Source: Escherichia phage SKA5
Reading direction: 5' to 3' (one strand)
DNA: 37,572 nucleotides
Sequence record: OR670062.1
The translations under genes were made by a program, and so were the position numbers. A model generated the notes under the pieces. The model made no database searches. It saw only the letters and a list, made by a program, of their open reading frames with translations, and was not told the DNA's origin. Below, piece by piece: positions 14,871 through 16,252 of this stretch (position 1 is the first letter of the stretch; each line of letters opens with the position of its first letter).

Positions 14871-15679
14871 TGACCACATTTACCGATAAAGAACTGATTA
14901 AAGAAATCAAAGAACGAATCAGCAGCATGGACGTGCGAGACAATGTTGAGCGCCGTGCTTATGAAATTGCTCTGGCATCGCTGGAAGAGGATCCGGTGGC
15001 ATGGCTGCATTCAGACAATGGCTTAGGTATTCCGGCAATAACCAGGAGTAAAAACATTGCTGACAGTTGGTTATCAAAGGGCTGGTATGTTCAGCCGCTA
15101 TATATAGCCAAGCCAGTGCCGGTGGTGCCAGATGCTCGTCCATCTTTAAATAATGGCATAGTCGGTTTTGATGAAGGCTGGAACGCCTGCCGAGCTGCCA
15201 TGCTCTATGGTGCCGTACCTGCAAGCCAGGCTTACAAGTTGCCACAAACGCAGTTTAAACAGGTTGCTGACCTCTACGAAATGCAATTTGATGACGGTCG
15301 CACTTGTACCTTTCACACTGATGCGCAAAAGGCTGTGCAATGGCTTCAGGCGTGCGACGGAAACAGGGTTCAGGAATACGTTAAGCTGGAACGATTGCAG
15401 AACGCACTGTCTGGCAACTCTCCGGTAACTCCGGATGGTTGGGTTATGGTGCCGAAGAGACTAACAGCCGAGAACGGCGCTAAGGGGGCGCTATCCGGTG
15501 AATTTTCAGAAACTACGTTTATAAGCTGCCTGGAATGCTTTGGCGATGATGATTGCGATACCTGTGACGGGAGCGGACGTATTGAAATTAAAGTGCCAGT
15601 CACGTGGTCGACCATAAAATCTATCTGGGATAAAGGTATCGAGTATTTTGCAGCAAAACCATCACAAGAGGTGAAGTGA
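14870..15679 (+). CDS. hypothetical protein with C-terminal Cys cluster (zinc-ribbon-like)
   Basis: 269 aa; C-terminus CLECFGDDDCDTCDGSGR. Translationally coupled on both sides. Confidence 0.5.
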   Translation: MTTFTDKELIKEIKERISSMDVRDNVERRAYEIALASLEEDPVAWLHSDNGLGIPAITRSKNIADSWLSKGWYVQPLYIAKPVPVVPDARPSLNNGIVGFDEGWNACRAAMLYGAVPASQAYKLPQTQFKQVADLYEMQFDDGRTCTFHTDAQKAVQWLQACDGNRVQEYVKLERLQNALSGNSPVTPDGWVMVPKRLTAENGAKGALSGEFSETTFISCLECFGDDDCDTCDGSGRIEIKVPVTWSTIKSIWDKGIEYFAAKPSQEVK

Positions 15680-16252
15680 TGAACAACTTAATGATCGACC
15701 TTGAGACGATGGGGAAAAATAAGGATGCACCGATCGTTTCCATTGGCGCGGTGTTCTTCACTCCAGAAACCGGAGACATCGGACAAGAATTCTATACGGT
15801 TGTTAGCCTGGAAAGTGCTATGGGGCAAGGAGCTACACCTGACGGCGATACCATCCTGTGGTGGTTGAAACAAAGCCCTGAAGCACGAGCTGCAATCTGT
15901 ATTGATGATACTTTGTCGATCAGCGATGCTCTCTCAGAACTAAATCATTTCATTAACCGGCACGCAGACAATACGAAATATTTAAAAGTCTGGGGTAACG
16001 GAGCCACCTTCGACAACGTAATTTTACGTGGAGCTTATGAGCGAGCAGGACAAATCATTCCCGTGGGCATACTGGAATGACCACGATGTACGCACGATCG
16101 TTACGCTTGGGCGTTCCATCGGATTCGACCCCAAAATGGACATGCCTTTCGATGGCGAACGGCACAACGCCCTGGCTGATGCCCGTCATCAGGCAAAATA
16201 TGTTTCCGCTATCTGGCAGAAATTAATTCCTGCCACCAGCACAGAATTATGA
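15679..16252 (+). pseudogene. DnaQ-like 3'-5' exonuclease, frameshifted
   Basis: The 5' ORF (to 16080) carries the Exo I motif MIDLET. The 3' ORF (16028..16252), in the +1 frame, carries the Exo III motif HNALADA. The frames switch near 16040-16060, next to short AAA/CCC runs. Confidence 0.6.

What the first reader, a model, noticed from the sequence alone, without database searches (positions are those of the whole stretch)
15679..16252. DnaQ-like exonuclease gene split by a +1 frame change
The Exo I motif (IDLET) and Exo III motif (HNALADA) are in two overlapping ORFs in different frames. The switch lies near 16040-16060 beside short homopolymer runs (AAA, CCC). This could be a true pseudogene, a sequencing or assembly indel, or less likely a programmed frameshift.
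Basis: seen in the sequence. Interest (0 to 1): 0.4.

Follow-up and report, generated by a model that had tools for sequence, protein, structure and literature searches.

The report
Frameshifted phage 3'-5' exonuclease gene
A temperate E. coli phage (SKA5) carries a DexA/Rv2179c-type 3'-5' exonuclease gene that is broken by a genuine one-base insertion: an ordinary inactivating mutation, not a sequencing error and not a programmed frameshift.

Summary
Window 15679-16252 is one 3'-5' exonuclease gene (Pfam PF16473, Rv2179c-like; closest solved relative is T4 DexA) split into a 133-aa ORF (15679-16080) and a 71-aa ORF (16037-16252) in the +1 frame.

Intact homologues are a single 573-nt, 190-aa gene. 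The nearest intact allele differs at only two places: an A inserted at 16057 and G>T at 16059 (codon 127).

The break falls after Exo I and Exo II but before the Trp132, His162 and Asp167 equivalents, so the 133-aa product should be catalytically dead.

The window is Escherichia phage SKA5, where both pieces are already annotated as separate CDSs. The same allele occurs base-for-base in two separately assembled bacterial sequencing runs, in the prophage state, so it is a real inherited mutation.

None of 744 E. coli records or 10 phage records that carry the gene has the shift, and no recoding signal is present, so it is not programmed.

Both changes together convert an imperfect inverted repeat into a perfect 7-bp one. 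This is the signature of a single quasi-palindrome template-switch replication error.

Verdict: an ordinary, recent pseudogenisation of an accessory gene. Low interest.

The parts
15679..16252 (+). Whole disrupted exonuclease gene, 574 nt. Intact homologues are 573 nt and 190 aa.
   Evidence: Alignment to mEp460 gp26 and PhiR40_1. Identical to the E. coli LR-46 allele apart from 16057 and 16059.
15679..16080 (+). Upstream ORF of 133 aa: wild-type residues 1-126, then 7 out-of-frame residues (IPVGILE), then TGA. Carries Exo I (Asp7, Glu9) and Exo II (Asp112). GenBank WQM42317.1.
   Evidence: PF16473 profile positions 1-126, E 2.6e-50.
16037..16252 (+). Downstream ORF of 71 aa in the +1 frame: 8 out-of-frame residues (MSEQDKSF), then wild-type residues 128-190. 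Carries the Trp132 equivalent and Exo III (His162, Asp167). GenBank WQM42318.1. A GGAG lies only 3 nt before the ATG.
   Evidence: PF16473 profile positions 122-177, E 9.1e-20.
16057..16059 (+). The lesion: A inserted at 16057 and G>T at 16059. Wild-type codon 127 TGC (Cys) is disrupted.
16055..16080 (+). Inverted repeat created by the lesion. Perfect arms TCATTCC (16055-16061) and GGAATGA (16074-16080); extended arms 16055-16064 and 16071-16080 are 90% complementary. The right arm contains the TGA stop of the truncated ORF.
   Evidence: the repeat finder finds it in the window but not in the wild-type locus. As single-stranded DNA the 26-mer folds as this hairpin at -4.9 kcal/mol; the wild-type 25-mer gives -2.4 with a different fold.
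15697..15705 (+). Exo I motif, Asp7-Leu-Glu9.
   Evidence: Sequence. Aligned to T4 DexA DFET.
16012..16014 (+). Exo II Asp112, aligned to DexA Asp119.
   Evidence: Catalytic residue list from PMC12153337.
16163..16180 (+). Exo III His162-x4-Asp167 (HNALAD), now in the +1 frame.
   Evidence: Sequence. Pfam match runs to the end of the profile.

Best explanation
The region is a single accessory gene of the temperate phage SKA5. It encodes a DEDDh 3'-5' exonuclease of the Rv2179c-like/T4 DexA-like family. The gene sits in the early-left operon, translationally coupled to the ea22-like gene upstream and followed by a PrtN-like excisionase gene.

A recent, genuine, inherited mutation has inactivated it: A inserted at 16057 plus G>T at 16059.

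Translation from the native ATG now ends at TGA 16078-16080. The 133-aa product has the Exo I and Exo II acidic residues but lacks the Trp132, His162 and Asp167 equivalents, so it should have no exonuclease activity. That loss of activity is inferred, not measured.

The two base changes most likely arose in one event. While the minus strand was being synthesised, its 3' end folded back on the just-made copy of the right arm (GGAATGA on the + strand), copied it, and returned. This turned the imperfect left arm TC-TGCC into TCATTCC. This is quasi-palindrome template-switch mutagenesis, and it is also an inference.

The phage genome in the window is in the excised attP form, so the gene appears dispensable for excision (inferred).
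For: Shown directly:
- One family, contiguous profile coordinates across the two ORFs.
- All relatives have a single 573-nt gene.
- The nearest intact allele differs only at 16057 and 16059.
- The exact 133-aa and 71-aa products are those of Escherichia phage SKA5, whose longest contig is 37572 bp. They are also on two Logan assemblies of other runs, SRR32268887 and SRR9902656.
- Those contigs are 100% identical to window 14848-18081, lesion included. They continue into chromosomal genes (DUF2713, zur, dinF, lexA, plsB), so they are independent libraries of a lysogen.
- In about 25 kb of high-identity alignment to relatives, 16057 is the only uncompensated single-base indel seen against every relative that covers the site. 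The assembly is therefore not indel-prone.
- The lesion creates the inverted repeat. Only 1.8% of all 24,624 possible 'insertion plus nearby substitution' variants of the wild-type gene create a perfect inverted repeat of 7 bp or more covering both changes.
- Catalytic mapping comes from the DexA alignment and the residue list in PMC12153337.
Against: - No reads were inspected. The two SRA runs could be the same strain or the same laboratory, so they prove reproducibility of the sequence, not antiquity of the allele.
- Loss of activity is inferred from motif positions only.
- The template-switch origin rests on a 1.8% chance figure and is post hoc.
- A direct repeat AAATCATT at 15942 is an alternative donor.
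- In a 41-nt context the new hairpin is not the minimum-free-energy fold.
Confidence: 0.85

Rival explanations
1. Sequencing or assembly error in the deposited SKA5 genome; the real phage has the intact gene.
For: The allele is absent from 744 E. coli records and 10 phage records. Exact-pattern scans of viral, genome and metagenome contig collections also found nothing.
Against: - The same compound change appears in two other independently assembled runs, in the prophage context.
- It is not in a homopolymer, and it comes with an adjacent substitution.
- No other uncompensated indel occurs in about 25 kb of alignment to close relatives.
- The host lineage of those runs is not in the complete-genome set (best flank identity 98.8%), which explains the absence there.
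Confidence: 0.03
2. Recoding: ribosomes shift +1 in the 16028-16080 overlap and make a full-length enzyme. The only re-pairing site is CCC-G at 16060-16063, where tRNA-Pro slips from CCC to CCG. That would give a 190-aa protein with Cys127Ile. The shift could be a programmed event or a low-level leak.
For: - A +1 slip at CCC-G would restore the exact wild-type length and sequence apart from residue 127 (read from the sequence).
- Residue 127 is not conserved in T4 DexA, where it aligns with Glu147.
- From general knowledge, not tested here: CCC-N codons are among the more +1-prone sites in E. coli.
Against: - Programmed sites are conserved, and here every relative has the unshifted gene.
- There is no stop or rare codon in the A site after CCC (GUG follows).
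- There is no Shine-Dalgarno element about 3 nt upstream as in prfB.
- There is no homopolymer long enough for transcriptional slippage.
- Rfam finds nothing in the window.
- The lesion is two mutational steps from an otherwise identical intact allele.
Confidence: 0.04
3. The two ORFs are both translated and reassemble as a functional two-piece exonuclease.
For: The downstream ORF has its own ATG at 16037, preceded by GGAG. GenBank annotates both pieces.
Against: - The GGAG-to-ATG spacing is only 3 nt.
- The same ATG/GGAG sequence exists in the intact allele as ordinary coding sequence.
- No relative has a split arrangement as a conserved state.
- In another frameshifted allele (L007) the ATG itself is destroyed.
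Confidence: 0.03

Closest known systems
Intact orthologues: phage mEp460 gp26 (YP_007112100.1, 'exonuclease') and E. coli prophage WP_001061348.1 ('3'-5' exonuclease')
   Same: Same gene in the same neighbourhood (DUF551/ea22-like gene, exonuclease, PrtN-like excisionase). Identity is 99.2-99.7% at the DNA level.
   Different: They are a single 573-nt ORF. The window has one extra base and one substitution at codon 127.
Bacteriophage T4 DexA (exonuclease A; PDB 8KEL/8KEN; Kang et al., NAR 2025, PMC12153337)
   Same: Closest solved structure by sequence (E 8.3e-11 over residues 3-140). Asp7/Glu9, Asp112 and Trp132 align with DexA Asp7/Glu9, Asp119 and Trp152. Ser80 and Asp83 align with the DexA tetramer residues Ser87 and Asp90.
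   Different: DexA is 227 aa with extra loops, and it is intact. Overall identity is low. The activity of the lambdoid protein has not been tested.
EcD, the 'HREX' E. coli DexA homologue (HAK9828821.1), reported to digest 5hmC DNA and protect against T4 (PMC12153337)
   Same: Same DexA-like DEDDh family, carried in E. coli.
   Different: It is a different family member. Primer sequences show that EcD starts MIDTET and ends differently, and it has Ala where DexA has Asp90, whereas this protein has Asp83. The SKA5 copy is frameshifted.
Pfam PF16473, Rv2179c-like 3'-5' exoribonuclease domain (DEDDh, RNase H-like fold)
   Same: Both fragments score far above the gathering threshold, and together they cover the whole profile. 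There is also a weak PADLOC DEDDh match, E 2.3e-5.
   Different: The domain is split between two reading frames.
prfB-type programmed +1 frameshifting
   Same: The direction of shift needed (+1) is the same.
   Different: There is no conserved shift site, no in-frame stop or slow codon at the shift codon, no closely spaced SD, and no conservation among homologues.
Quasi-palindrome template-switch mutations (Ripley model; the E. coli lacZ QP reporters of the Lovett laboratory). Cited from my own knowledge, not from a paper read here.
   Same: A compound insertion plus substitution simultaneously makes an imperfect inverted repeat perfect.
   Different: Here it is inferred from a natural allele, not observed in a reporter.

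Membership tests
PF16473 Rv2179c-like / DexA-like DEDDh exonuclease | Profile match above the curated cut-off (27 bits) | tested here: met
   171 bits (profile positions 1-126) and 71.5 bits (positions 122-177) for the two fragments. PHROG 255 'exonuclease', E 1.8e-93, for the intact allele.
PF16473 Rv2179c-like / DexA-like DEDDh exonuclease | Exo I D-x-E, Exo II D and Exo III H-x4-D all present in the sequence | tested here: met
   Asp7/Glu9, Asp112 and His162/Asp167 are all present.
PF16473 Rv2179c-like / DexA-like DEDDh exonuclease | All catalytic motifs on one polypeptide (a functional member) | tested here: not met
   Exo III lies in the +1 frame after a stop at 16078-16080. This is a pseudogene of the family.
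Exodeoxyribonuclease VIII (RecE), the name given in the GenBank record | Match to a RecE-type exonuclease domain | tested here: not met
   The only Pfam hit is PF16473. NCBIfam gave no hit. The name is an annotation carry-over.
Programmed +1 ribosomal frameshift | The frame change is conserved in homologues | tested here: not met
   Every listed record among the 744 E. coli and 10 phage records has a query-to-record length offset showing the unshifted gene, and the best identity is 99.7%, so none has the allele. Alignment.
Programmed +1 ribosomal frameshift | A shift-prone P-site codon followed by a stop or slow codon, with a stimulator | tested here: not met
   Only CCC-G can re-pair. The A-site codon is GUG. 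There is no SD 3 nt upstream. No Rfam element was found.
Programmed +1 ribosomal frameshift | A trans-frame protein is produced | not testable with these tools
   This needs a reporter assay or proteomics.
HREX / EcD-type anti-phage exonuclease | Trp and acidic residue for 5hmC recognition (DexA Trp152, Asp169) | tested here: inconclusive
   Trp132 aligns with DexA Trp152. The printed alignment stops before Asp169. Both positions are downstream of the frameshift.
HREX / EcD-type anti-phage exonuclease | Loss of the tetramer residue (Ala in place of DexA Asp90) | tested here: not met
   Asp83 aligns with DexA Asp90, and Ser80 with Ser87 (PMC12153337).
HREX / EcD-type anti-phage exonuclease | Protection against T-even phages | not testable with these tools
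   This needs a plaque assay.
Quasi-palindrome template-switch mutation | A pre-existing imperfect inverted repeat, with every base change making the arms complementary | tested here: met
   The wild-type left arm is TC-TGCC and the right arm is GGAATGA; the mutant left arm is TCATTCC. The chance of such a signature is 1.8%.

The most novel reading that the evidence does not exclude
The allele is not a null but an attenuated one. Spontaneous +1 slippage of tRNA-Pro at CCC-G (16060-16063) would yield a small amount of full-length Cys127Ile exonuclease. On this reading, a lineage of SKA5 lysogens keeps a low dose of a DexA-like nuclease that in its intact form may act against modified-DNA phages.
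Probability: 0.05. Interest if true: 0.3.

Novelty: already known. Interest (0 to 1): 0.1.

Why it matters
It matters mainly for annotation.

- The two CDSs in the SKA5 record (WQM42317.1 and WQM42318.1, both named 'exodeoxyribonuclease VIII') are the halves of one frameshifted DexA/Rv2179c-like 3'-5' exonuclease gene. They should be flagged as a pseudogene and renamed.
- Biologically, the gene appears dispensable for excision of this phage. Prophage accessory genes of this family decay in nature: two other independent frameshift alleles turned up in passing.
- Because an E. coli member of the family was recently reported to protect against T4, SKA5 lysogens would be predicted to lack any such protection from this gene.
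- The lesion is a tidy natural example of a quasi-palindrome template-switch mutation, which is a known mechanism.

None of this is surprising to a specialist.

Tried and rejected
- **Pattern scans.** Exact scans for the mutant allele found nothing in viral contigs, genome contigs or metagenome contigs. A scan of viral contigs for a hypothetical intermediate allele of wild-type length with G>T only (ATCTTCCCG) also found nothing. So there is no evidence that the two changes arose separately.
- **Literature.** A search for 'SKA5' found nothing relevant. A search for 'Rv2179c' gave only mycobacterial and unrelated papers.
- **Other libraries.** NCBIfam has no model for the protein. Rfam at gathering threshold finds nothing in the whole window.
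- **Folding.** Folding 41 nt around the site as DNA gave the same minimum-free-energy structure and energy for mutant and wild type. The new hairpin only shows when the 26-mer is folded alone.
- **Homopolymer slippage.** Rejected, because the inserted A lies between C and T.
- **Transcriptional slippage.** Rejected, because no run is longer than 4 nt.
- **Clustering of frameshifts.** Three independent insertions fall in the same 53-nt overlap. I considered this as a hint of a hotspot or selection and rejected it as ascertainment. I found them through clusters defined by the 133-aa and 71-aa products, and only insertions inside that overlap can produce those products.
- **Not run.** The large protein-homology searches and structure prediction, because the answer did not depend on them.

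Full report
**What is in the sequence**

Window 15679-16252 holds two overlapping + strand ORFs.
- The first runs from ATG 15679 (an in-frame GTG lies at 15676) to TGA 16078-16080.
- The second runs from GTG 16028 or ATG 16037 to TGA 16250-16252, in the +1 frame relative to the first.

Both match one Pfam family, PF16473 (Rv2179c-like 3'-5' exoribonuclease domain), with contiguous profile coordinates: positions 1-126 of 177 (E 2.6e-50) and 122-177 of 177 (E 9.1e-20). IDLET (Asp7, Glu9) is in the first ORF and HNALAD (His162, Asp167) is in the second. Exo II (Asp112, 16012-16014) is also in the first ORF.

**Where the window comes from**

An exact-sequence look-up shows that the 133-aa and 71-aa products are WQM42317.1 and WQM42318.1 of Escherichia phage SKA5. 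Both are named 'exodeoxyribonuclease VIII', and the contig is 37572 bp, the same length as the window.

The genome is an SfV/mEp460-like temperate phage. It has Mu-like tail genes, a lambdoid early region, an integrase and a cI-like repressor.

The exonuclease gene lies in the early-left accessory block, in this order:
- yfdR-like 5'-deoxynucleotidase
- DUF551 protein
- ea22-like protein, whose stop overlaps the exonuclease ATG
- the exonuclease
- a PrtN-like excisionase

**Locating the lesion**

Intact homologues are a single 573-nt, 190-aa gene: mEp460 gp26, PhiR40_1, and E. coli LR-46 WP_001061348.1 annotated '3'-5' exonuclease'.

Alignment places one extra A at 16057 and a G>T at 16059. 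The wild type reads ATC-TGCCCG and the window reads ATCATTCCCG. Apart from these two changes the gene is identical to the LR-46 allele.

The lesion hits codon 127 (Cys). The upstream product is wild-type residues 1-126 plus IPVGILE. The downstream ORF is MSEQDKSF plus wild-type residues 128-190.

The closest solved structure is T4 DexA (8KEL, E 8.3e-11). Using that alignment and the DexA residue list in PMC12153337:
- Asp7/Glu9 and Asp112 lie before the break.
- The Trp132 equivalent of DexA Trp152, and His162/Asp167 (DexA His186/Asp191), lie after it.

The truncated protein should therefore be inactive. This is an inference.

**Real mutation or error?**

The mutant allele is absent from 744 E. 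coli records (739 of 5426 complete genomes carry the gene) and from 10 phage records. The best matches are 99.7%, meaning exactly the two differences. Exact-pattern scans of three contig collections also found nothing.

However, the exact 133-aa protein is encoded on two Logan assemblies of other sequencing runs, SRR32268887 and SRR9902656.
- Both contigs are 100% identical to window 14848-18081, lesion included.
- They then diverge in the att region (18 and 11 mismatches after 18082).
- One of them (SRR32268887, L005) runs on into DUF2713, zur, dinF, lexA and plsB.

They are therefore prophage-state copies from bacterial libraries. The chromosomal flank is at most 98.8% identical to any complete genome. 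This explains why the allele is missing from that collection.

Across about 25 kb of high-identity alignment to four relatives, 16057 is the only uncompensated single-base indel seen against every relative covering that site. A compound, non-homopolymer change reproduced in three data sets is not an assembly artefact. I could not inspect reads or run metadata, so the two runs may be the same strain.

**Not programmed**

A programmed shift would be conserved, and here it is private to one lineage. The only place in the 16028-16080 overlap where a P-site tRNA could re-pair in +1 is CCC-G (16060-16063).
- It is followed by an ordinary GUG codon.
- It has no closely spaced Shine-Dalgarno element.
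- There is no homopolymer long enough for transcriptional slippage.
- Rfam finds nothing.

A low-level spontaneous slip at CCC-G would give a full-length Cys127Ile protein. I keep that as the 'novel case' at about 5%.

**How the lesion probably arose**

The two changes together create a perfect inverted repeat, TCATTCC (16055-16061) and GGAATGA (16074-16080). With two further pairs inside, the arms are 10 nt and 90% complementary with a 6-nt loop. The wild-type locus has no such repeat.
- The wild-type left arm, TC-TGCC, differs from the complement of the right arm by exactly one missing base and one mismatch.
- The 26-mer folds as this hairpin at -4.9 kcal/mol as DNA. The wild-type 25-mer does not.

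A single fold-back of the nascent minus strand onto its own copy of the right arm, followed by return to the template, reproduces both changes. This is the classic quasi-palindrome template-switch mechanism (my own knowledge of the Ripley and Lovett work).

I enumerated all 24,624 'one-base insertion plus substitution within 2 nt' variants of the wild-type gene. Only 1.8% create a perfect inverted repeat of at least 7 bp covering both changes.

There are caveats. The test is post hoc. A direct repeat AAATCATT at 15942 is an alternative, poorer donor. In a 41-nt context the hairpin is not the minimum-free-energy fold.

**Comparison with known things**

The family is known, and the intact gene is common in E. 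coli prophages. T4 DexA is its characterised relative.

A 2025 paper reports that an E. coli homologue, EcD, digests 5hmC DNA and protects against T4 (PMC12153337). EcD is a different member of the family. It has different termini, judged from the primer sequences. It also has Ala where this protein keeps Asp83, the equivalent of DexA Asp90. I therefore do not transfer that function.

The GenBank name 'exodeoxyribonuclease VIII' is not supported, because no RecE-type match was found.

Two other independent one-base insertions in the same gene turned up in other runs (L007 and L008). This fits ordinary decay of an accessory prophage gene. Their co-location is explained by how I found them.

**Verdict**

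The finding is real and correctly read by the first stage. It is a recent, genuine frameshift pseudogene of a known exonuclease family in phage SKA5, already visible as two CDSs in the public record. Interest is low (0.1) and the novelty category is 'already known'.

Noticed in passing
window 16831-17819 (- strand): A Panacea/SocA-domain protein (17247-17819, PF13274, E 2.2e-19) overlaps by 4 nt a downstream 139-aa ORF (16831-17250) that has no Pfam or PADLOC hit. The pair looks like a PanA-type antitoxin plus an unclassified toxin, at the prophage end next to attP.
   Followed up: partly
window 18082-18180; L005 3235-3333: The window and the prophage-state contigs are identical up to 18081, then differ at 18 of 99 positions. 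This fits attP in the window against attR in the lysogen. In E. coli LR-46 the junction carries a partial tRNA-dihydrouridine synthase (dusA-like) fragment, and the integrase (18266-19363) lies on the other side.
   Followed up: partly
window 13870: All alignments to relatives break at 13870. Compared with E. coli LR-46 and phage vB_EcoM-720R4, SKA5 lacks a 1303-bp module carrying yfdP and yfdQ. The junction lies at a short GC-rich palindrome (CCCCTACGGGG), and ORF 13587-13925 spans it.
   Followed up: partly
window 19817-20380 (- strand) and 20457-21947: A Hin/Gin-type serine invertase (PF00239 with an HTH_7 domain) sits next to oppositely oriented tail-fibre and tail-fibre-assembly ORFs. This suggests an invertible host-range segment as in Mu or P1.
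   Followed up: no
L007 355-510 (SRR31740476); L008 2943-3095 (ERR11841894): Two other alleles of the same exonuclease gene carry independent one-base insertions inside the same 53-nt frame overlap. One has T>CC, which destroys the internal ATG. The other has GG>GGG just before AATGA. Each rests on a single assembly and is unverified.
   Followed up: partly
window 15679-16252: The public record names both fragments 'exodeoxyribonuclease VIII' (RecE). The sequence belongs instead to the DEDDh Rv2179c/DexA-like family, so this is an annotation error that has spread through several phage records.
   Followed up: yes
L003 6581-6891 (E. coli LR-46): In the LR-46 prophage, the hypothetical gene just upstream of yfdP is itself annotated as frameshifted. 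This is another sign that this accessory block accumulates disruptions.
   Followed up: no
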